The position numbers were made by a program, and so were the translations under genes. The notes beneath the pieces were generated by a model. That model was not told where the DNA came from and did not search any database. It saw only the letters and a list, made by a program, of their open reading frames with translations. This document shows, piece by piece, positions 3,336-13,254 of a DNA stretch of 13,254 nt (position 1 is its first letter; every line of letters starts with the position of its first letter). The stretch lies in UHGV virus genome UHGV-0180761; one strand, written 5' to 3'. The DNA is from a virus.

Positions 3336-3674
3336 CTATTTCCCTGAATTTACGACGAAACTGTTCGAGCGGGCTGAAGCACTCATGCTCATAGCCTTCG
3401 CGGAGGTAGATAACACGTTGTGTTTCCGGCTCCCAACGAATGACTCTGACGGGCACACCGTAGTGATCTTTGAACCAGCGGTTAACTTGTCGCAAAGGAC
3501 TGTCTCCTTCTGCCGGTTGAAATCACCCACAGCCCACTCTGCAAAGCTGTGGGTTACAATTTCCCTGTCACCTGGTACATTTACTGCATAGCAATACTCC
3601 ACCTTCGCTTTTCCACCCGGTACAGGAAGCGCAATCAGTTGCGAGCGACGGTAGTGTGTTGTTAAACTGTTCAT
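3336..3674 (-). CDS. ymfM: YmfM-like protein (112 aa)
   Basis: ORF length equals K-12 YmfM (112 aa) and sits in the same position after the YmfL-like gene; ATGA start/stop overlap with the upstream gene. Identity by length and synteny only. Confidence 0.6.
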
Positions 3675-4234
3675 GCGTTAGTTTCTCCACAGTCACGACA
3701 CGCCACGGCGCCCGGAGCTGCACACTCGCGGGCGTCACTACTTTCTGAAACGCAAAAGATTTTGTAGACCAGTGCTGCATGCTCCTGCAGCTTCGAAATT
3801 GAGAGATACAGCTCATCGTTAATTGCTGTCTTCTCATGCGGTTCCACTACACCGTCTTCAATTGCTGAACGAATCTGTTTTGAATAACTGCCGATCTGTT
3901 CAATGACTTCCAGCAGGCGTTGGTTGATATCGGCGTTGTCCACATCCTCGACGTCAGGAAGAGACACAAAGACGCCATTTGCAGACTGCGCCACAGCATC
4001 AGCAATGAAGTGAGTGCCACCAGCACGCTGTAAAACCATTGCCCATCCCAGCGGGAAAATCTGATCGCCATCTGCACGAAGGCGGTTGAATAAAGCGTTT
4101 TCTGTTACATCGAGCCAGTCAGCCGCTTCAGCGTAACCACCCGGCAACGCCGCGATAGTTTTTCTGACAGCTTTCACGTACCACTCAGGCTGTTTTTCTA
4201 TTTTCCAGTGATGCTTACCCACGGTTAGCCTCAT
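3671..4234 (-). CDS. ymfL: YmfL-like protein (187 aa), function unknown
   Basis: First gene downstream of cro on the minus strand, coupled to the YmfM-like gene by an ATGA overlap; C-terminal CxxC pair ([17 protein letters not shown]). Name by synteny and length (K-12 YmfL about 189 aa). Confidence 0.6.
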
Positions 4235-4556: not shown

Positions 4557-5231
4557 ATGAAAACAATCCATGACATCCGGCGGTCTAACGCCAGAAAACT
4601 GAGAGATGGTGTTGGCGGGAATTCTTCCTTTGCCACTATGATTGATCGCGAGCCAACCCAGACCAGCAGGTTTATGGGAGATGGTGCTACTAAAAATATC
4701 GGTGACAGCATGGCACGACACATCGAAAAATGTTTCGACCTGCCTGTCGGATGGCTCGATCAAGAACACCAGACAACGAACATCACAAAAAAACCTGATG
4801 TTTCAATCACTAATAAACAAATCACATTAGTCCCTGTCATATCATGGGTACAGGCCGGAGCATGGAAAGAAGTTGGATATTCTGAGGTTGATTTGAGCAC
4901 AGCAGAAACGTATCCCTGCCCTGTACCCTGTGGGGAAATGACTTATATCTTGCGGGTGATAGGTGATTCAATGATTGATGAGTACCGCCCGGGAGACATG
5001 ATTTTTGTCGATCCTGAAGTACCTGCCTGCCACGGTGACGACGTTATTGCATTGATGCACGATACAGGCGAAACCACCTTCAAAAGGTTGATAGAAGATG
5101 GGACACAGCGTTATCTCAAAGCGTTAAACCCAAACTGGCCTGAGCCTTACATTAAGATCAACGGTAATTGCTCTATAATTGGTACAGTGATTTTCTCAGG
5201 AAAACCAAGAAGATACAAAATCAAAGCCTAA
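4557..5231 (+). CDS. cohE: CI-type prophage repressor with C-terminal S24 (LexA-like) autopeptidase domain (224 aa)
   Basis: C-terminal S24 motif (VIGDSMIDEYRPGDMIFVDPE ... TFKRL, Ser/Lys dyad context); divergent from cro; length equals K-12 CohE (224 aa). Confidence 0.85.
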   Translation: MKTIHDIRRSNARKLRDGVGGNSSFATMIDREPTQTSRFMGDGATKNIGDSMARHIEKCFDLPVGWLDQEHQTTNITKKPDVSITNKQITLVPVISWVQAGAWKEVGYSEVDLSTAETYPCPVPCGEMTYILRVIGDSMIDEYRPGDMIFVDPEVPACHGDDVIALMHDTGETTFKRLIEDGTQRYLKALNPNWPEPYIKINGNCSIIGTVIFSGKPRRYKIKA

Positions 5232-6974: not shown

Positions 6975-7799
6975 ATGTCTCAGAACTTAGACGCAACCGC
7001 AATTAATCAAATCCATGCCCTTATTTCTGCTCAGGGTGTTAATGAAATTATCAGTAAGATTGGTGCCGATGCTGTGGCATTGCCTGAGAATTTCCGCATT
7101 CATGACCTGGAAAAATTTAATTTAAATCGCTTCCGTTTCCGTGGTGCGCTTTCCACTGCCAGCATTGATGACTTTACCCGTTATTCTAAAGATCTTGCAG
7201 ATGAAGGCACCCGCTGCTTTATCGATGCTGATAATATGCGTGCCGTCAGTGTGCTTAACCTGGGTACTATTGATGAACCAGGCCACGCAGATAACACCGC
7301 CACTCTCAAACTGAAAAAGACAGCACCGTTCTCTGCTCTGTTGTCTGTTCACGGCGAGCGTAACTCCCAGAAATCACTGGCAGAATGGATTGAAGACTGG
7401 GCCGACAACCTTGTGGGCTTTGATGCTAATGGTGACGCCATTCAGGCAACCAAAGCGGCTGCGGCGATCCGTAAAATCACAATTGAAGCGAACCAGACTG
7501 CTGATTTTGAAGACAATGACTTCAGCGGCAAACGCTCCCTGATGGAGTCTGTCGAAGCGAAGACCAAAGACATTATGCCAGTGGCATTTGAATTTAAATG
7601 CGTTCCGTTTGAAGGTCTGAAAGAACGTTCTTTTAAATTACGCCTCAGCATTATCACTGGCGATCGTCCTGTACTTGTTCTGCGCATTATTCAGCTGGAG
7701 GCGGTGCAGGAAGAAATGGCTAACGAATTTCGCGATCTGCTTGTTGAGAAATTCAAAGACAGCAAAGTAGAAACCTTTATTGGTACTTTCACCGCCTGA
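6975..7799 (+). CDS. YfdQ-like prophage protein (DUF2303-type, 274 aa)
   Basis: Clean ATG with TGAGGA Shine-Dalgarno; length matches CPS-53 YfdQ (274 aa); sits between YfdP-like and YfdR-like genes. Confidence 0.75.
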
Positions 7800-7833: not shown

Positions 7834-7927
7834 ATGGAAACGTAATTAACTCAATAATCGCCGGATGGTGAGGGCTTCCTTTTACCAGAATTCAGTGCGG
7901 TGCAGCGCAAATAACGTGGAGAACAAA

Positions 7928-8476
7928 ATGTCATTTATTAAAACTTTTTCTGGGAAGCATTTTTATTATGACAGGATAAATAAAGACGATATCGTTATTA
8001 ACGATATCGCGTTTTCCCTTTCAAATATCTGTCGCTTTGCAGGACATCTTTCACACTTCTACAGCGTCGCCCAACATGCGGTTCTTTGCAGCCAACTGGT
8101 ACCGCAGGAATTTGCTTTTGAAGCGTTAATGCATGATGCAACAGAAGTGTATTGCCAGGACATCCCCGCTCCACTGAAACGCCTTCTTCCTGACTATAAA
8201 CAGATGGAAGAAAAAATAGACGCCGTAATCCGTGAGAAATACGGGTTACCCCCGGTTATGAGTACGCCCGTGAAATATGCCGATCTCATCATGCTGGCAA
8301 CCGAACGCCGCGATCTCGGGCTTGATGATGGCTCTTTCTGGCCTGTACTGGAAGGCATCCCGGCAACAGAGATGTTCAACGTGATTCCACTGGCACCGGG
8401 CCATGCCTACGGGATGTTTATGGAACGCTTTAAAGAGCTGCATAAGATGCATAAACAATCCAGACAGCGAAATTAA
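7928..8476 (+). CDS. HD-domain phosphohydrolase, YfdR-like 5-prime-deoxynucleotidase family (182 aa)
   Basis: HD-domain signature residues (RFAGHLSHFYSVAQHA ... LMHDATEVY ... D); start set at ATG 7928 with GGAG Shine-Dalgarno instead of the upstream ATG at 7865. Confidence 0.8.
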   Translation: MSFIKTFSGKHFYYDRINKDDIVINDIAFSLSNICRFAGHLSHFYSVAQHAVLCSQLVPQEFAFEALMHDATEVYCQDIPAPLKRLLPDYKQMEEKIDAVIREKYGLPPVMSTPVKYADLIMLATERRDLGLDDGSFWPVLEGIPATEMFNVIPLAPGHAYGMFMERFKELHKMHKQSRQRN

Positions 8477-8519
8477 CTAGTGAAATAGTTTTGTAGCAAA
8501 AGAAATGAGGTTATCAAAA

Positions 8520-8765
8520 ATGCTTCAAATGCTGACACTTGAGGAATGGGCTGCGGAAAAATACAGAAGTAATCCTCCAAGCGTGTCCACATTGCGTCGT
8601 TATGCTAAGCAGAATTTATTTTGTCCACCGGCAATGAAACAAGGTCGACTATGGCGAGTGCGTGAGGACGCAGAGTTAGTTGGGGAATTAGTTACTCCTG
8701 TCATCAAGAAAAATGATTCTATTATTCTACAAAGGATTTTAAGTAATGGCAGCCAGACCACGTAA
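8520..8765 (+). CDS. xis: Excisionase (81 aa)
   Basis: Small basic protein directly upstream of and overlapping the integrase start by 20 nt; start set at ATG 8520 (GAGG 9 nt upstream), giving 81 aa, the length of K-12 XisE. Confidence 0.7.
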   Translation: MLQMLTLEEWAAEKYRSNPPSVSTLRRYAKQNLFCPPAMKQGRLWRVREDAELVGELVTPVIKKNDSIILQRILSNGSQTT

Positions 8766-9873
8766 AAATAATGTTTCAGTCCCGAACTTGTATCCGCTTT
8801 ATAGTAGAAAAGTAAATAAAGTCTATTGGCGATATAAACATCCAGTGACCGGGAAGTTTCATTCTTTAGGCACAAACGAAGCTGAAGCCATTGCTATTGC
8901 CACTGAGGCAAATTCACGCCTGGCTGAGCAAAGAACCCGGCAGATTCTGGCTATCAGTGACAGGATCGCAACCAGCAAAGGAAAAGCAATCACAACGTCA
9001 ACCTGGTTAGATCGCTATCAAGCAATCCAGGAAGACAGACTGAAAAGTGGCGATATAAAGCTCAACACCTATAAACAGAAAGCCAAACCAGTATCCTTGC
9101 TCAGGGAACGAGCAGGACTGAAGTTGATATCAGCCGTTGATGTCAGAGATATAGCACAATTACTTGATGAGTATATCTCTGCTGGACAGCCTAGAATGGC
9201 CCAGGTCGTAAGGTCTGTATTGATCGATGTGTTTAAGGAAGCACAGCATTACGGCGAAGTTCCACCAGGGTATAACCCTGCTCTTGCAACGAAGCAACCC
9301 AGAAGGAAAATTAGCCGTCAACGCCTCAGCCTAGAAGAATGGAAAAAAATATTCGATATCGCAGACGCCGCTCATCGTTATATGGGAAATGCCATGCTCC
9401 TAGCTTTGGTCACTGGGCAGCGTTTAGGAGATATATCCAAAATGAAATTTAGTGATATTTGGGAGGATCATCTTCACGTCATTCAGGAAAAGACCGGGAG
9501 CAAAATCGCTATCCCTCTTTCTTTACGTTTGAATGCTATCAACTGGTGTTTACGTGATGTAGTAGCTCGCTGCCGTGACTACGCAGTCAGCCCATACTTA
9601 GTGCATTTTTTCCGTACTACATCACAGGCTGAACGTGGCGCACAGGTAAAAGCTAATACACTAACGATGAACTTTAGCAAGGCACGTGATCTGGCAGAAA
9701 TTGATTGGGGTACTGGAACTCCAGCAACTTTTCATGAACAAAGATCTTTATCTGAGCGTCTTTACAAGGAACAAGGGATTGATACCAGAAAGTTACTGGG
9801 CCATAAAACCCAGCAGCAAACCGATCGTTACCATGATGACCGAGGGAAAGGTTGGAGCAAAGTAGCATTGTAA
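8746..9873 (+). CDS. intE: Tyrosine integrase, phage integrase family (375 aa)
   Basis: C-terminal catalytic region with conserved Arg/His/Tyr context (LLGHKTQQQTDRYHDD), N-terminal arm-binding region; 375 aa equals K-12 IntE; preceded by xis. Confidence 0.9.
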   Translation: MAARPRKNNVSVPNLYPLYSRKVNKVYWRYKHPVTGKFHSLGTNEAEAIAIATEANSRLAEQRTRQILAISDRIATSKGKAITTSTWLDRYQAIQEDRLKSGDIKLNTYKQKAKPVSLLRERAGLKLISAVDVRDIAQLLDEYISAGQPRMAQVVRSVLIDVFKEAQHYGEVPPGYNPALATKQPRRKISRQRLSLEEWKKIFDIADAAHRYMGNAMLLALVTGQRLGDISKMKFSDIWEDHLHVIQEKTGSKIAIPLSLRLNAINWCLRDVVARCRDYAVSPYLVHFFRTTSQAERGAQVKANTLTMNFSKARDLAEIDWGTGTPATFHEQRSLSERLYKEQGIDTRKLLGHKTQQQTDRYHDDRGKGWSKVAL

Positions 9874-10078
9874 AAATTTAAGCGTTTCAACGCCATCTTG
9901 ATTTTCTTAACATTATGGAAAAGAACCAAACAGTCCGCTTTGAGCCAGGAACAGAGTTTTCTAATATGGTGAACTGCAATGCCTGAACATATATTAGACC
10001 AATCTTTTGAAATTTTGCTAAAGAATCATCAAATAATGTCGATAATAATGATATACCATATGAAAGGGAATATAATTT

Positions 10079-10576
10079 ATGCCACATTTAGACGAAATTC
10101 GCAGAAAGCTAAGGAAACAATGTCCTACATCCGCAGGCGAGGATGGTGAAGAGTATGCTCTTAAATGGTTAGAAAACTCCCAATGGGAGTTTGTATATGT
10201 CGAACAAGGAAAAACAGACCTATCTAAAAGTTTAAAAATATATGGGGGAAAACGCCCCGATTTTATTATTAAAGTTGATAGTAACACCTTTATTCTTCTG
10301 GATGCAAAGTATCATTCAACAGAGAACTGCACCTCCTTTACACTCACAGAGTGTGAAATAGGTAAGTATCGCGCACTCAAGCAATTTTTAATTAATAAAA
10401 ATAGCGAACTTACGTTCGAAGTGATTTTCATGGTATTTCCAAAAGAAAAAGATGGCAAGAAATTTGTATTTGTTAGTTTGGATGAGTTTGATAAAGGAGA
10501 ATGTGTAACTCTAGCATCAAAAAATGCAACAAAGATTAGTCTACTCAATAGAGATAATTTATGGCTTGACCATTAA
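10079..10576 (+). CDS. Hypothetical protein (165 aa) with a PD-(D/E)xK nuclease-fold signature
   Basis: Motif P60-D61 (GGKRPDFII) followed 14 residues later by hydrophobic-hydrophobic-D-A-K (FILLDAKY), with upstream Glu candidates; AAGGGA Shine-Dalgarno upstream of ATG; located in the AT-rich cargo after int. Confidence 0.6.
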   Translation: MPHLDEIRRKLRKQCPTSAGEDGEEYALKWLENSQWEFVYVEQGKTDLSKSLKIYGGKRPDFIIKVDSNTFILLDAKYHSTENCTSFTLTECEIGKYRALKQFLINKNSELTFEVIFMVFPKEKDGKKFVFVSLDEFDKGECVTLASKNATKISLLNRDNLWLDH

Positions 10577-10865
10577 TGTTAAAAGCGACTTGTTTCTGCA
10601 CTTTTTAAGATTGCTATTTTAATTATGCCGACTATAGATGAAATCTGTGAGTCGTAGTGTGTTTAATAAATATATTCCAACGAAACCTCAGATTATATCA
10701 GATTGCCAGCAAGACTACTGTTAGGAATGTTAGCGTCACAAAATTGACTTTCAAAATGGGTTGAATGTCCGCAGTGAACGAAAAACTGACTTGGCACAGT
10801 CACAGCTAGAAAATTAGTAAGACATCCAATGACTTTTCCCCGATATTGGCTGAATGTCTTTATTA

Positions 10866-11705
10866 CTATCTAAATCTAACCTCACAAAACCAGTTATTTT
10901 CCGAGAGACAACTATAGAGTGCGGATTGCCAAGAATTTAAGCTTACCGATTTTTTTCCAGCTGCGGTTTCAGTCAAGTATTTTTTTAACTCGATACTCCC
11001 CCCCCCATCGTAAATTCTCTTTGCGATATATTCAATGCTCGCTAGTTCTTCAGCTGCATGTGATGCATAAAGAGCAGACAACTTAAATGCCTTAAAGTGA
11101 TACTTCATACGTTTAGCTAAAAGTGGGGGGCAATCTTCAGGTGGCTCTACATAAAACTCTATCGCTACAGGAATAGATTCCCGTATTTTTGCCTTAACCC
11201 AAACAAATGCTTCTACATCATCGTAATATGGGTGCAAAGTTTCTTCTTCTGAGCAAATTGGGATATCTTCGCTCTTTGTTTTATTACAATCCTGACAGGC
11301 TGGTATAAGATTAAAAGGCGATACAGCCAATGATGGAAAATGTGCTTTAGGTAAGTGATGATCTAATGTCGATACTACTCTTTGAGAACATAGTGGGCAT
11401 CTTCCATGATCTGGAAGTGACATTAACTTGTCATAATAGATACGCCCTGGGGCTAATTTCTTAGCCATTCTGCTTGTATAGACAACCTTCATTTCGTCAA
11501 CTGTAACAACAGTGGCAACATTGTCTTTAGGCAAAATTGTATGTAATTGTGCAATTGATACTTTTGCATCAAATTCTATTGAGGAATCTTCTATTTCTTG
11601 AGAACATGCTATAAGCCTCCTCTTTAAATCTTCATCGCGAACTCGATCAATGCATGCATTAAATACATCCAACGCACTATCATTCGGTTTTAAGAGTTTT
11701 TTCAT
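10866..11705 (-). CDS. HNH endonuclease-domain protein (279 aa), second gene of an ATPase-nuclease operon
   Basis: Zinc-finger HNH signature CPLC(103-106) ... DHHLPK(115-120) ... N132 ... CQDCN(137-141); the ATG overlaps the stop of the upstream ATPase gene (ATGA), so the two are translationally coupled. Confidence 0.8.
   Translation of the reverse strand: MKKLLKPNDSALDVFNACIDRVRDEDLKRRLIACSQEIEDSSIEFDAKVSIAQLHTILPKDNVATVVTVDEMKVVYTSRMAKKLAPGRIYYDKLMSLPDHGRCPLCSQRVVSTLDHHLPKAHFPSLAVSPFNLIPACQDCNKTKSEDIPICSEEETLHPYYDDVEAFVWVKAKIRESIPVAIEFYVEPPEDCPPLLAKRMKYHFKAFKLSALYASHAAEELASIEYIAKRIYDGGGSIELKKYLTETAAGKKSVSLNSWQSALYSCLSENNWFCEVRFR
10998..11006. repeat. Homopolymeric C9 tract (G9 on the coding strand) inside the HNH gene
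   Basis: Directly visible: ctccccccccccatc at 10996-11009; encodes Gly234-Gly236 of the HNH protein. Confidence 0.9.
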
Positions 11706-13249
11706 GATTGGTTTCTCTTAATTAAAAACAAAGCCCGCAAAATACCTCTAGCTTCAATTCCAAGTTGCCCATTGAAATTTTGCACAGCTGAATCGTAATC
11801 TTCGAATTTATTTACAGCATCGTCAAGAAGATTATGGAATCCAGAGTCGGTATTTTCCAATCCAAATACCTCCCTCGTTAGTATACCCACATTTTCACCG
11901 AAAGATTCTGTTTCTAGCCTTTCTACTTTAGACAAGTAGCCACTACGCCACAACTTCCACGTACAGCTTCGAGGAACTTCCTGGAGAACTACAGGAGAGT
12001 GGGTAGCTATTATAGATACTGCATTCCTATTAATTAATAAATCAGAAAGAGACCTTACAAAAGCTGATAATAATGGTGGATGGAGATGAGCTTCTGGTTC
12101 ATCTAAAAAAACCAAGCTTCTTTCTTCCATTGTCTCGACAAGTCTAGTGATAGTTAGCAATACAATTTTGTGCCCGGAACTTAAATTTTTGAATACTCTT
12201 CCTGCAATATCTTTAAACTCATCTTCATCTTGTCTATTCAATATTGATGCTACATTAATGTCAGCAAATACTGGATCTGACTCCAGCTTATCCACAGCCC
12301 TTTTCCAACGTTCAATTTTCCCTCCTGCCTTACAAGAAAGCATACTTTTCACGAATTCATTTTTCAATATAACAGGGCTTTTGGGCGGGAGACTTTTCTC
12401 ATCACCTTTTTTTACTCTTTTTAGTCCCACATATGAAAACTGTATACCTGTAGATTTATCTTTTTTTTCTGATAAAGGTTCTGTTTCATCAAAAGCGCTA
12501 AAAGTGACTGATACTACGTTAGAGAAAAGCTCACCAGCTAGTTGATCTTTAGATGAAAATTCACCGACTTTTGTTGGCGTTGTATTTTCGTCAATTAATG
12601 AACTAATCATATTATTCATTAAATGCGTTTTCCCAACACCATTCCGACCAATTAGCACATGAATATTTGTTGGGGGATTGCTCTCTGGTATCACTTCAAA
12701 ACTTAACTTAATACGGTCAGAGTCAGTGCCTTTCATCACTGGTGAGTTATATGAAAATGAATATTTTGAAAGTCGAGCACCTCCGTTCGCAAGTCGACGA
12801 AACTGTCCCTTAATAGATGTATGGCTGACGGATCTCAGAAGAGATATGCTAGTGACCCTCTCATTTATTGCTTTATTATATATATCTTCACTCAGAGCAA
12901 TATCATTAAGCGATGATAATATTTCATTTCGGATATCTTCTCCTAGTTCATTCAACACTTCGTAAAAACTATCATCTTGACCAACGGAGAAAAAACTCTC
13001 ATCTAGTTTTTCGAAAGCTTCAGGGATACTTGGTCTACTTTGACCTTTCGCCATATTCAATTGGCCAATTTTAGTAGAACCAATAATATTCTTATCCTTA
13101 TTTGAATCTATATAAACCAATGTATACATTGTAGAAAATTCAAACCAGTCATCCCAATTATCAGTAATTAAATAGGCACAGTTAGATTGTTCAACAGAGC
13201 ACATACTTCCCGCAGGCAGCACCTTAAATCTCATCTTTATCCCACTCAT
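11702..13249 (-). CDS. ABC-type (AAA_15/AAA_21-like) ATPase, 515 aa, with an unrecognised 200-aa N-terminal domain; first gene of the ATPase-HNH operon
   Basis: Walker A GRNGVGKT (aa 201-208, nt 12626-12649), signature-like LSSGHK (356-361), Walker B LVFLDEPE (379-386), H-loop ATHSP (415-419). In-frame TAA sits immediately upstream of the first ATG, 5 nt from the window edge, so the promoter is outside the window. Confidence 0.8.
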   Translation of the reverse strand: MSGIKMRFKVLPAGSMCSVEQSNCAYLITDNWDDWFEFSTMYTLVYIDSNKDKNIIGSTKIGQLNMAKGQSRPSIPEAFEKLDESFFSVGQDDSFYEVLNELGEDIRNEILSSLNDIALSEDIYNKAINERVTSISLLRSVSHTSIKGQFRRLANGGARLSKYSFSYNSPVMKGTDSDRIKLSFEVIPESNPPTNIHVLIGRNGVGKTHLMNNMISSLIDENTTPTKVGEFSSKDQLAGELFSNVVSVTFSAFDETEPLSEKKDKSTGIQFSYVGLKRVKKGDEKSLPPKSPVILKNEFVKSMLSCKAGGKIERWKRAVDKLESDPVFADINVASILNRQDEDEFKDIAGRVFKNLSSGHKIVLLTITRLVETMEERSLVFLDEPEAHLHPPLLSAFVRSLSDLLINRNAVSIIATHSPVVLQEVPRSCTWKLWRSGYLSKVERLETESFGENVGILTREVFGLENTDSGFHNLLDDAVNKFEDYDSAVQNFNGQLGIEARGILRALFLIKRNQS

Positions 13250-13254
13250 TTATA

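What the first reader, a model, noticed from the sequence alone, without database searches (positions are those of the whole stretch)
10866..13254. Translationally coupled ABC-ATPase plus HNH nuclease operon in the integrase-adjacent cargo slot: Septu-like defence candidate with a non-canonical ATPase N-terminus
A 515-aa protein with a complete ABC-ATPase motif set is fused by an ATGA overlap to a 279-aa protein with a textbook HNH motif. An ATPase plus HNH nuclease is the architecture of Septu (PtuA/PtuB) anti-phage systems. In canonical PtuA-type ATPases the Walker A lies near the N-terminus; here it is preceded by about 200 residues of unrecognised sequence, so this may be a divergent or unclassified variant. 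The operon occupies the slot between int and the att site, where K-12 e14 carries the lit abortive-infection gene; e14 also carries mcrA at its other end. Its promoter lies beyond the window edge.
Basis: partly seen in the sequence, partly recalled or inferred. Interest (0 to 1): 0.85.

Follow-up and report, generated by a model that had tools for sequence, protein, structure and literature searches.

The report
Lambda Ea59/Ea31-type ATPase–nuclease cargo
The two genes are real and form an ATPase plus HNH nuclease pair, but they are a copy of phage lambda's old, unexplained ea59–ea31 genes, a widespread family already listed as an untested anti-phage candidate, so this is a new member of a known kind.

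Summary
Two overlapping minus-strand genes (ATGA at 11702-11705) encode an ABC-type ATPase and a 279-aa HNH protein. The ATPase more likely starts at the second ATG (13234), giving 510 aa, not 515.

The pair is not unclassified. Both proteins match PADLOC's untested candidate PDC-M01 over their full length (697 and 354 bits). They are also full-length homologues of phage lambda Ea59 (40% identity, E 1e-123) and Ea31 (26%, E 2e-30). Lambda has the same ATPase-then-HNH order and 4-bp overlap, next to int/attP.

The ATPase is PtuA-like. One PADLOC PtuA model covers it fully, and its best PDB fold matches are all PtuA. The HNH partner shows no significant similarity to PtuB (hhalign probability 0.4%). 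So it is Septu-like in design but not a demonstrated Septu member.

The context supports accessory or defence cargo: low GC, a variable intE–icd slot, and relatives beside integrases, restriction systems, GAPS4 and Wadjet. Function is untested.

The parts
11702..13234 (-). ABC-type ATPase, 510 aa (lambda Ea59 family; PADLOC PDC-M01A; phrog_8066). The stop codon is included. An alternative upstream ATG at 13249 would give 515 aa.
   Evidence: PDLC04235, 697 bits, full length; PtuA1|PtuA PDLC00282, 647 bits. (WP_001211403.1). (40% identity to Ea59, E 1e-123)..
12830..13234 (-). Family-specific N-terminal domain, about aa 1-135. It has a five-stranded sheet plus helices and invariant W27, D29, K55, G57, S83, G85 and Q86. 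No known fold matches it. It is a putative sensor or regulatory domain.
12626..12649 (-).
12092..12115 (-). Walker B with catalytic Glu, LVFLDEPE (D378, E379).
11702..11705 (-). ATGA overlap of the ATPase stop and the HNH start (translational coupling). Lambda ea59/ea31 has the same 4-bp overlap.
10866..11705 (-). HNH nuclease subunit, 279 aa (lambda Ea31 family; PADLOC PDC-M01B; phrog_10378).
   Evidence: PF01844, 23 bits; PDLC04264, 354 bits, full length. (26% identity to Ea31 over the full length, E 2e-30)..
11283..11399 (-). HNH (beta-beta-alpha-metal) core with two Cys pairs: C103-x2-C106, D115-H116, N132, C137-x2-C140-N141.
   Evidence: (aligns in register with PtuB catalytic H75 and N91, though not significantly).

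Best explanation
**What it is.** This is a two-gene module of the phage lambda Ea59/Ea31 family, equal to PADLOC candidate PDC-M01. It is a Septu-like clade. It is carried as low-GC accessory cargo in the variable intE-to-icd(attL) slot of an e14-like prophage.

**Shown here.**
- An ABC-type ATPase (510 aa) with key motif residues invariant across homologues, preceded by a family-specific N-terminal domain of about 135 aa.
- Translational coupling to a 279-aa zinc-finger-type HNH nuclease.
- Conservation of the pair as an operon across phyla and in lambda itself.

**Inferred mechanism.** The ATPase and the nuclease form one complex, as PtuA and PtuB do in Septu. The ATPase head and its N-terminal domain keep the nuclease silent until a cue from an infecting phage or other mobile element arrives. 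The HNH subunit then cuts nucleic acid and stops the invader's replication, possibly at a cost to the cell. The target could be DNA, in line with the ssDNA-dependent endonuclease reported for lambda, or a tRNA, as in characterised Septu.

**Expression.** Here the operon probably has its own promoter in the icd-proximal spacer just outside the window. It could therefore be expressed from the resident prophage.
For: **Identity**
- Both proteins hit PDC-M01A and PDC-M01B over their full length.
- They are full-length homologues of lambda Ea59 and Ea31, with the same gene order and 4-bp overlap.
- PHROG families phrog_8066 and phrog_10378 match.

**PtuA-like ATPase**
- PADLOC PtuA1|PtuA model PDLC00282 aligns 1-515/520.
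- The top 40 Foldseek PDB hits of the AF2 model (pLDDT 87) are all PtuA from retron I-A or E. coli Septu. ABC transporters rank lower.

**Likely catalytic competence**
- Invariant Walker A Lys, Walker B Asp-Glu and H-loop His. Invariant HNH residues Cys, Asp-His and Asn.

**Conflict-system context**
- GC is 34-39% here against 42-59% in the rest of the window.
- The cargo is present in only 3 of 5,426 complete E. coli genomes, while the flanking e14 backbone is common.
- The same slot holds other cargo in other strains: an AAA_15 ATPase with a D12 methylase in one, hypothetical proteins in another.
- Relatives lie between GAPS4 and Wadjet.
- Relatives lie in a Vibrio island with an integrase, type I HsdR and GmrSD.
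- A relative lies directly after int in a Providencia lambdoid prophage.
- Relatives occur on 82 plasmids.
- PDC systems were nominated because cassettes were found embedded in BREX, DISARM or type I RM loci.

**Other**
- Candidate promoter TTGACA-16-TATTTT with TG lies about 140 bp upstream of the start.
- Lambda is reported to encode an ssDNA-dependent endonuclease (Benchimol et al. 1982, cited).
Against: - No experiment shows defence for any PDC-M01 or Ea59/Ea31 pair. PDCs are explicitly untested. No paper in the searched library links Ea59 or Ea31 to defence.
- In lambda these are early lytic proteins of a region dispensable for plaque formation. Expression from a repressed prophage is not expected there (my knowledge). 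That fits a role in the phage's own lytic cycle as well as it fits host defence.
- Complex formation, the trigger and the substrate are all inferred by analogy with Septu. Yet the HNH subunit shows no significant similarity to PtuB.
- The assignment of lambda's Ben endonuclease to Ea31/Ea59 rests on my memory and was not verified here.
- The promoter is only a consensus match. The scan found 17 sites against 13.9 expected by chance.
Confidence: 0.6

Rival explanations
1. It is simply a Septu system. The proteins are true PtuA and PtuB orthologues. They would work as described for E. coli Septu: a PtuA6:PtuB2 horseshoe, ATP-inhibited DNA nicking and/or cleavage of tRNA-Tyr in the variable loop.
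For: - PADLOC labels one of its PtuA models (PDLC00282) with this very subfamily, full length including the N-terminal domain.
- The best PDB fold matches are all PtuA.
- PADLOC users report loci called both Septu and PDC-M01.
- The ATPase-then-HNH two-gene design is the same.
Against: - The HNH protein matches no PtuB-named PADLOC model in its top 25. The validated PtuB EcB88 hits PtuB1 models and no PDC-M01B model in its top 25.
- TIGR02646 and NCBIfam PtuB do not hit.
- Profile-profile comparison with the PtuB family gives probability 0.4% and E 0.16.
- NCBIfam PtuA scores 37 bits against a cut-off of 500.
- The PDB PtuA sequences match only about 80-160 residues of the C-terminal half of the ATPase (residues 290-465 at most). 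The PtuA EcB88 profile comparison aligns only the Walker A region. Identity in fold alignments is 10-14%.
- The ATPase carries an extra 135-aa domain, and the HNH protein an extra 40-aa N-terminal region, relative to PtuA (K43) and PtuB (H75).
Confidence: 0.15
2. It is a phage-benefit accessory nuclease, not a host defence. It would act during the element's own induced or lytic cycle, for example to degrade host or competitor DNA or to process DNA intermediates. This follows the lambda case, where Ea59 and Ea31 are made early from pL.
For: - Lambda carries the module and expresses 'Ea' proteins early in lytic growth (my knowledge).
- It is dispensable for plaque formation.
- Lambda specifies an ssDNA-dependent endonuclease.
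- In Providencia and lambda the pair is co-directional with int.
Against: - Here the operon is convergent with int. It has its own upstream spacer with a promoter-like site, so it is not wired into the e14 early transcript.
- Most relatives are in non-phage contexts such as plasmids, integrative islands and defence islands.
- Only 24 phage records hold a match.
Confidence: 0.15
3. It is a selfish stabilisation module, either addiction-like or a mobile HNH homing endonuclease with a helper ATPase. It would persist by harming cells or genomes that lose it, with no role against phages.
For: - HNH nucleases are common homing endonucleases.
- The pair is always on mobile elements and is patchily distributed.
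- IS1 insertions occur in or next to the cargo in two of the three E. coli carriers.
Against: - Both partners are very strongly conserved over their full length across phyla: about 55% identity for the ATPase and about 48% for the HNH protein.
- Operon structure is strictly conserved.
- It associates with known defence systems.
- It is not inserted within host genes as homing elements are.
Confidence: 0.06
4. It is a housekeeping DNA-repair or transporter ABC ATPase with an associated nuclease.
For: Weak partial hits to ABC_tran, SMC_N and MutS2-type models.
Against: - All such hits are far below the curated cut-offs and cover only the P-loop or signature regions.
- The pair is present in 3 of 5,426 E. 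coli genomes, inside a prophage, with low GC.
Confidence: 0.01

Closest known systems
Phage lambda ea59-ea31 (b region, next to attP/int)
   Same: - The ATPase is homologous over its full length, including the N-terminal domain (40% identity, E 1e-123).
- The HNH protein is homologous over its full length (26% identity, E 2e-30).
- Gene order is ATPase then HNH, with a 4-bp overlap.
- Both modules are int-proximal accessory cargo of a lambdoid or e14-type temperate element.
- Both hit the same PADLOC (PDC-M01A/B) and PHROG families.
   Different: - In lambda the pair lies across attP from int and is co-directional with it, on the early pL transcript. Here it lies between int and attL, convergent with int, with its own upstream spacer.
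- The sequences are diverged. The nearest relatives of the window pair are in Salmonella, Providencia, Marinobacter and Vibrio (83-92% identity), not lambda.
PADLOC phage defence candidate PDC-M01 (Payne et al., guilt-by-embedding set; untested)
   Same: Both proteins match PDC-M01A (PDLC04235, 697 bits, 1-506/510) and PDC-M01B (PDLC04264, 354 bits, 1-279/282) end to end.
   Different: None in architecture. This is a member. The class itself has no experimental validation.
Septu (PtuA ABC ATPase + PtuB HNH), e.g. E. coli ATCC 25922 (PDB 8EEA) and Septu EcB88
   Same: - Two-gene ABC ATPase plus HNH nuclease operon.
- The ATPase's nearest solved folds are PtuA.
- One PADLOC PtuA model covers it.
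- The HNH catalytic residues align in register with PtuB H75 and N91.
   Different: - An extra N-terminal domain of about 135 aa. Walker A Lys is at 202, against 43 in PtuA.
- The HNH partner has different flanking domains and no significant similarity to PtuB/TIGR02646.
- Sequence identity to PtuA is 10-14%.
- The trigger, the target (tRNA-Tyr or DNA nicking) and the assembly are unknown here.
Retron type I-A (Ec78/Eco7, Ec83) PtuAB effectors
   Same: They are the closest solved ATPase structures by Foldseek rank and by PDB sequence search.
   Different: - There is no reverse transcriptase and no ncRNA nearby.
- The retron PtuA N-terminal extension is a short helical element that binds the RT. 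It is not the sheet-plus-helix domain seen here.
OLD / Gabija GajA / PARIS AriA class ABC ATPase-nuclease defences
   Same: They share the AAA_15/AAA_21 ABC ATPase class. Weak PADLOC hits to AriA cover the C-terminal half.
   Different: The nuclease is a separate HNH protein, not TOPRIM. None of these appear in the top 50 fold matches.

Membership tests
Lambda Ea59/Ea31 family (= PADLOC PDC-M01) | ATPase homologous to Ea59 / PDC-M01A over its full length, including the N-terminal domain | tested here: met
   BLASTP gives 40% identity over residues 1-504, E 1e-123. PDLC04235 scores 697 bits over 1-506/510. The N-terminal 190 aa alone score 212 bits.
Lambda Ea59/Ea31 family (= PADLOC PDC-M01) | HNH partner homologous to Ea31 / PDC-M01B over its full length | tested here: met
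   BLASTP gives 26% identity over 1-273, E 2e-30. PDLC04264 scores 354 bits over 1-279/282. phrog_10378 scores 387 bits.
Lambda Ea59/Ea31 family (= PADLOC PDC-M01) | Operon order ATPase then HNH, on the same strand and tightly coupled | tested here: met
   ATGA overlap here. A 4-bp overlap in lambda. Adjacent pairs in Desulfosporosinus, Lacibacter, Marinobacter, Vibrio and Providencia.
Lambda Ea59/Ea31 family (= PADLOC PDC-M01) | Demonstrated biological function (defence or other) | not testable with these tools
   PDC systems are untested. Lambda ea59/ea31 are known only as non-essential.
Septu (PtuA/PtuB) | PtuA: ABC-type ATPase with AAA_15/AAA_21 signatures that matches PtuA profiles | tested here: met
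   AAA_21 scores 73 bits and AAA_15 38.8 bits, both above cut-off. PADLOC PtuA1|PtuA PDLC00282 scores 647 bits over the full length. The top PDB fold hits are PtuA. However, NCBIfam PtuA NF041760 scores 37 bits against a cut-off of 500. PDB PtuA sequences align only in the C-terminal half of the ATPase, and the PtuA EcB88 profile only at Walker A.
Septu (PtuA/PtuB) | PtuB: HNH protein of the PtuB/TIGR02646 family | tested here: not met
   No PtuB-named PADLOC model appears in the top 25 for the whole protein or for the HNH core. No NCBIfam hit. hhalign against PtuB EcB88 gives probability 0.6%, and against a 25-sequence PtuB family profile 0.4%, E 0.16. The validated PtuB hits PtuB1 models and no PDC-M01B model in its top 25.
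Septu (PtuA/PtuB) | Adjacent two-gene ATPase-plus-HNH operon | tested here: met
Septu (PtuA/PtuB) | PtuA architecture: the ABC head starts near the N-terminus (Walker A Lys about 40), with no separate N-terminal domain | tested here: not met
   Walker A Lys is at 202. A folded extra domain occupies residues 1-135. PtuA EcB88 has K43.
Septu (PtuA/PtuB) | PtuA6:PtuB2 assembly through a bundle of the PtuA C-terminal extension and the PtuB C-terminal domain; anti-phage activity that depends on Walker and HNH residues | not tested
   No complex prediction or experiment was possible.
Retron type I-A (RT + ncRNA + PtuAB) | Adjacent reverse transcriptase and retron ncRNA | tested here: not met
   No RT gene lies between intE and icd. 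There are no Rfam hits in the window.
OLD / Gabija / PARIS (ABC ATPase + TOPRIM) | TOPRIM nuclease domain or partner | tested here: not met
   The partner is HNH (PF01844). No TOPRIM hit was found in either protein.

The most novel reading that the evidence does not exclude
The Ea59/Ea31 (PDC-M01) family is an immune or inter-element conflict system that works differently from Septu. Its family-specific N-terminal domain, a fold with no known relative, would be the sensor. Its nuclease would be activated by a cue such as single-stranded DNA. Phage lambda's ea59-ea31 genes, unexplained for decades, would be the phage-borne version of this system. That would give a function to classic orphan lambda genes and add a widespread defence class with thousands of members across phyla.
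Probability: 0.3. Interest if true: 0.65.

Novelty: new member of a known kind. Interest (0 to 1): 0.4.

Why it matters
By itself this locus adds little. It is one more copy of a very large family that is already catalogued.

Its value is the link it exposes. An untested PADLOC candidate (PDC-M01), one 'PtuA' model in the Septu set, and lambda's ea59-ea31 genes are the same module. Lambda genetics and an easily cloned E. coli e14 variant could therefore settle three questions:
- whether this clade defends against phages;
- what its conserved N-terminal domain senses;
- whether it should be merged with Septu or separated from it.

It also documents the intE-icd junction of e14-type elements as a slot where different cargo modules are exchanged.

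Tried and rejected
- **Sequence search of the PDB.** With the single proteins and with family profiles, it found only partial matches to PtuA in the C-terminal half of the ATPase. Nothing was significant for the HNH protein.
- **Other architectures for the N-terminal domain.** The profile search found 2,184 representatives. In all 150 listed hits the domain is N-terminal. Shorter hits look like contig-truncated fragments.
- **A third conserved gene.** None was found. The 165-aa ORF next to the pair is unrelated to the 164-aa gene after the Marinobacter pair and has no phage tblastn match.
- **Retron or ncRNA involvement.** There are no Rfam hits and no meaningful repeats.
- **Literature.** Nothing was found on the two RefSeq accessions. 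No validation of PDC-M01 was found. The Providencia 'Septu' that was tested is a canonical PtuB with H53, not this family. Doron 2018, Li 2024, Wang 2025 and Casjens & Hendrix 2015 are not held. I therefore could not check which subfamily the original Bacillus Septu systems belong to, nor the ben = Ea31 assignment. The lambda GenBank record carries no such note.
Full report
**Observation**

- The junction reads tcATGAaaa. The ATPase stop and the HNH start share four bases.
- The ATPase has Walker A GRNGVGKT (12626-12649), Walker B LVFLDEPE (12092-12115), a signature-like LSSGH and an H-loop ATHSP.
- The key residues of these motifs are invariant in an alignment of 30 homologues from Proteobacteria, Firmicutes, Bacteroidota, Actinobacteria and Planctomycetes.
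- The second protein has a two-Cys-pair HNH core, CPLC...DHH...N...C..CN, whose catalytic and zinc residues are invariant.

One correction concerns the start codon.
- RefSeq, all homologues and lambda Ea59 start at the second ATG (13234).
- A GTGGGA Shine-Dalgarno-like element precedes that ATG.
- The protein is therefore 510 aa, and the Walker A lysine is K202.

**Surroundings**

The window is an e14-like prophage.
- Peptidase_S24 repressor at 4557-5231.
- CII-like regulator at 3671-4234.
- YfdQ (DUF2303) at 6975-7799.
- YfdR-like protein at 7865-8476.
- Excisionase at 8505-8765.
- Lambda-type integrase at 8746-9873.

In the complete genome of E. coli 23CRST035 the order is xisE, intE, a 165-aa hypothetical gene (+), HNH (-), ATPase (-), about 485 bp of spacer, then icd. 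An icd 3' fragment and mcrA lie at the other end of the element.

Several facts mark the slot as exchangeable cargo.
- The cargo is 34-39% GC, against 42-59% for the rest of the window.
- It occurs in only 3 of 5,426 complete E. coli genomes.
- The backbone up to intE is found at about 97% identity in many genomes.
- In other strains the same slot holds an AAA_15 ATPase with a D12 adenine methylase, or three hypothetical genes.

The only promoter-like site upstream of the operon is TTGACA-16-TATTTT with an upstream TG. It lies about 140 bp before the start, outside the window. It is a consensus match only.

**What the proteins are**

- Pfam sees AAA_21/AAA_15 only in the C-terminal half of the ATPase. 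It gives a borderline HNH hit (23 bits). It finds nothing in the first 190 residues.
- PADLOC gives end-to-end matches to its candidate system PDC-M01: A component 697 bits, B component 354 bits.
- For the ATPase, PADLOC also gives an end-to-end match to one model labelled PtuA1|PtuA (PDLC00282, 647 bits). That model includes the N-terminal 190 residues, which score 191 bits on their own.
- PDC systems are the 145 untested candidates nominated by 'guilt-by-embedding'. Others exclude them as unvalidated. Users report loci called both Septu and PDC-M01.

**The lambda link**

A tblastn of the ATPase against phage genomes returned phage lambda Ea59 over 99% of its length.
- In lambda, ea59 (525 aa) is followed by ea31 (296 aa) with a 4-bp overlap. 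The pair lies beside attP and int.
- Pairwise, the window ATPase is 40% identical to Ea59 from residue 1 to 504 (E 1e-123). The window HNH protein is 26% identical to Ea31 over its whole length (E 2e-30).
- Ea59 and Ea31 hit the same PDC-M01A/B and PDLC00282 models.
- The window proteins fall in the PHROG families phrog_8066 (unknown function) and phrog_10378 (HNH endonuclease).

The module is thus the e14-borne counterpart of a classic lambda b-region operon.
- In the library I could search, ea47, ea31 and ea59 appear only as non-essential genes that are replaced in engineered phages. No paper connects them with defence.
- My recollection that this 'Ben' activity maps to Ea31 could not be verified.

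**The N-terminal domain**

- AlphaFold models are confident, for residues 1-145 alone (pLDDT 89) and for the whole protein (pLDDT 87). They show a five-stranded sheet followed by helices, then a standard ABC head from about residue 150.
- A profile of the domain finds 2,184 50%-identity cluster representatives (1,470 at E<=1e-10). In all 150 listed hits it lies at the N-terminus, and the full-length proteins are about 500-530 aa.
- Within PADLOC it matches only PDC-M01A models and PDLC00282.

It is also the defining, conserved feature of a large family, not a peculiarity of this locus. Its strong conservation (W27, D29, K55, G57, S83, G85 and Q86 are invariant) suggests a conserved ligand or partner. 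That is inference.

**Relation to Septu**

For the ATPase the relation is real but distant.
- The 40 best Foldseek matches in the PDB are all PtuA chains, from retron I-A or from E. coli Septu (8EEA, 8EE4). They rank ahead of ABC transporters. TM-scores are about 0.3-0.4 and identity is 10-14%.
- Sequence and profile searches of the PDB align only parts of the C-terminal half of the ATPase. The comparison with PtuA EcB88 aligns only the Walker A region.

For the nuclease I found no specific relation.
- The HNH protein matches no PtuB-named PADLOC model in its top 25, and no NCBIfam PtuB or TIGR02646 model.
- The experimentally validated PtuB of Septu EcB88, taken from the paper's supplement, hits PtuB1 models and no PDC-M01B model in its top 25.
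- A profile-profile comparison of the two HNH families gives probability 0.4% and E 0.16. The alignment does place CPLC/CAYC, DH/EH and N/N in register.

The pair is therefore Septu-like in design, and its ATPase is PtuA-like. A defining Septu feature, a PtuB-family partner, was tested and not met.

**Genomic company of relatives**

The pair is conserved as an adjacent operon in the following places.
- Desulfosporosinus, between GAPS4 and Wadjet.
- Lacibacter.
- A Marinobacter integrative element.
- A Vibrio parahaemolyticus island at smpB, with an integrase, type I HsdR and GmrSD.
- A Providencia lambdoid prophage, directly downstream of int.
- 82 plasmids, mostly in Streptomyces, Clostridium, Rhodococcus and rhizobia.

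No third gene is conserved.

**Mechanism**

- **Shown:** an ABC ATPase with invariant key motif residues plus a family-specific N-terminal domain, translationally coupled to an HNH nuclease with intact catalytic residues, on mobile elements and often among defence genes.
- **Inferred:** the two proteins form a complex. The ATPase and its N-terminal domain gate the nuclease. An infection cue releases cleavage of DNA or tRNA, which blocks the invader.

I give this 0.6. The main rivals are as follows.
- The pair is simply Septu with the published Septu mechanism (0.15).
- It serves the element's own lytic cycle, as its early expression in lambda might suggest (0.15).
- It is a selfish stabilisation or homing module (0.06).
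- A housekeeping role is effectively excluded.

**Verdict**

The locus is a new member of a known, catalogued but untested kind. The useful new point is the identity with lambda ea59-ea31, which makes the family's function directly testable with standard lambda and E. coli tools. Interest is 0.4.

Noticed in passing
window 10079-10576 (+): A 165-aa ORF lies between intE and the HNH gene, convergent with the pair, in the lowest-GC stretch (about 34%). It reads like a PD-(D/E)xK nuclease (RPDFII...LDAKY). Its only Pfam hits are sub-threshold and all to PD-(D/E)xK families: RmuC, McrBC and the FokI cleavage domain (E 0.03-0.09). It matches phrog_28481 (unknown function) over its full length. It has no PADLOC hit and no tblastn hit in phage genomes. 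It may be a separate small cargo gene.
   Followed up: partly
L009 1777-4416 (E. coli GF31) and L008 2123-4594 (E. coli SW4848): The same intE-to-icd slot of related e14-like elements holds different cargo. GF31 has a 569-aa AAA_15/AAA_21/SMC_N-type ATPase with a D12-class adenine methyltransferase. SW4848 has three hypothetical proteins and an integrase fragment. The slot behaves as an exchange point for accessory modules.
   Followed up: partly
one search hits H1 (NZ_CM169496.1) and H3 (NZ_CP084055.1): Two of the only three complete E. coli genomes that carry this cargo have an IS1-family insertion inside or next to it. In EC06 the match is split into two pieces. In X14-3 it starts at window position 10456, so the 165-aa ORF is truncated.
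   Followed up: no
L006 (lambda) compared with window 8746-13234: In lambda the pair lies across attP from int and is co-directional with it. In Providencia it follows int directly on the same strand (L012 7611-11384). In this window it is inverted, convergent with int, and lies on the int side of attL. The module seems to have been acquired independently next to integrases.
   Followed up: partly
L004 8001-10500 (Azospirillum brasilense): An ATPase homologue has no called HNH gene after it. A gap of about 940 bp is followed by IS transposases. This may be a degraded pair. A 968-aa SMC_N/AAA_21 protein lies nearby.
   Followed up: no
L005 4289-7889 (Lacibacter sp.): Directly upstream of the conserved pair lie another HNH protein (263 aa) and a 725-aa protein with no Pfam hit. 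This may be a second nuclease module.
   Followed up: no
L011 7021-8991 (Vibrio parahaemolyticus): A 656-aa HATPase_c (GHKL-type) protein ends 10 bp before the ATPase gene, on the same strand. It is a possible lineage-specific third component or a neighbouring system.
   Followed up: no
one search hits H65-H67 (BL21(DE3)-type strains): The DE3 prophage of BL21(DE3)-type lab strains keeps only the first 870 bp of lambda ea59. These common expression hosts therefore carry a truncated copy of the module.
   Followed up: no
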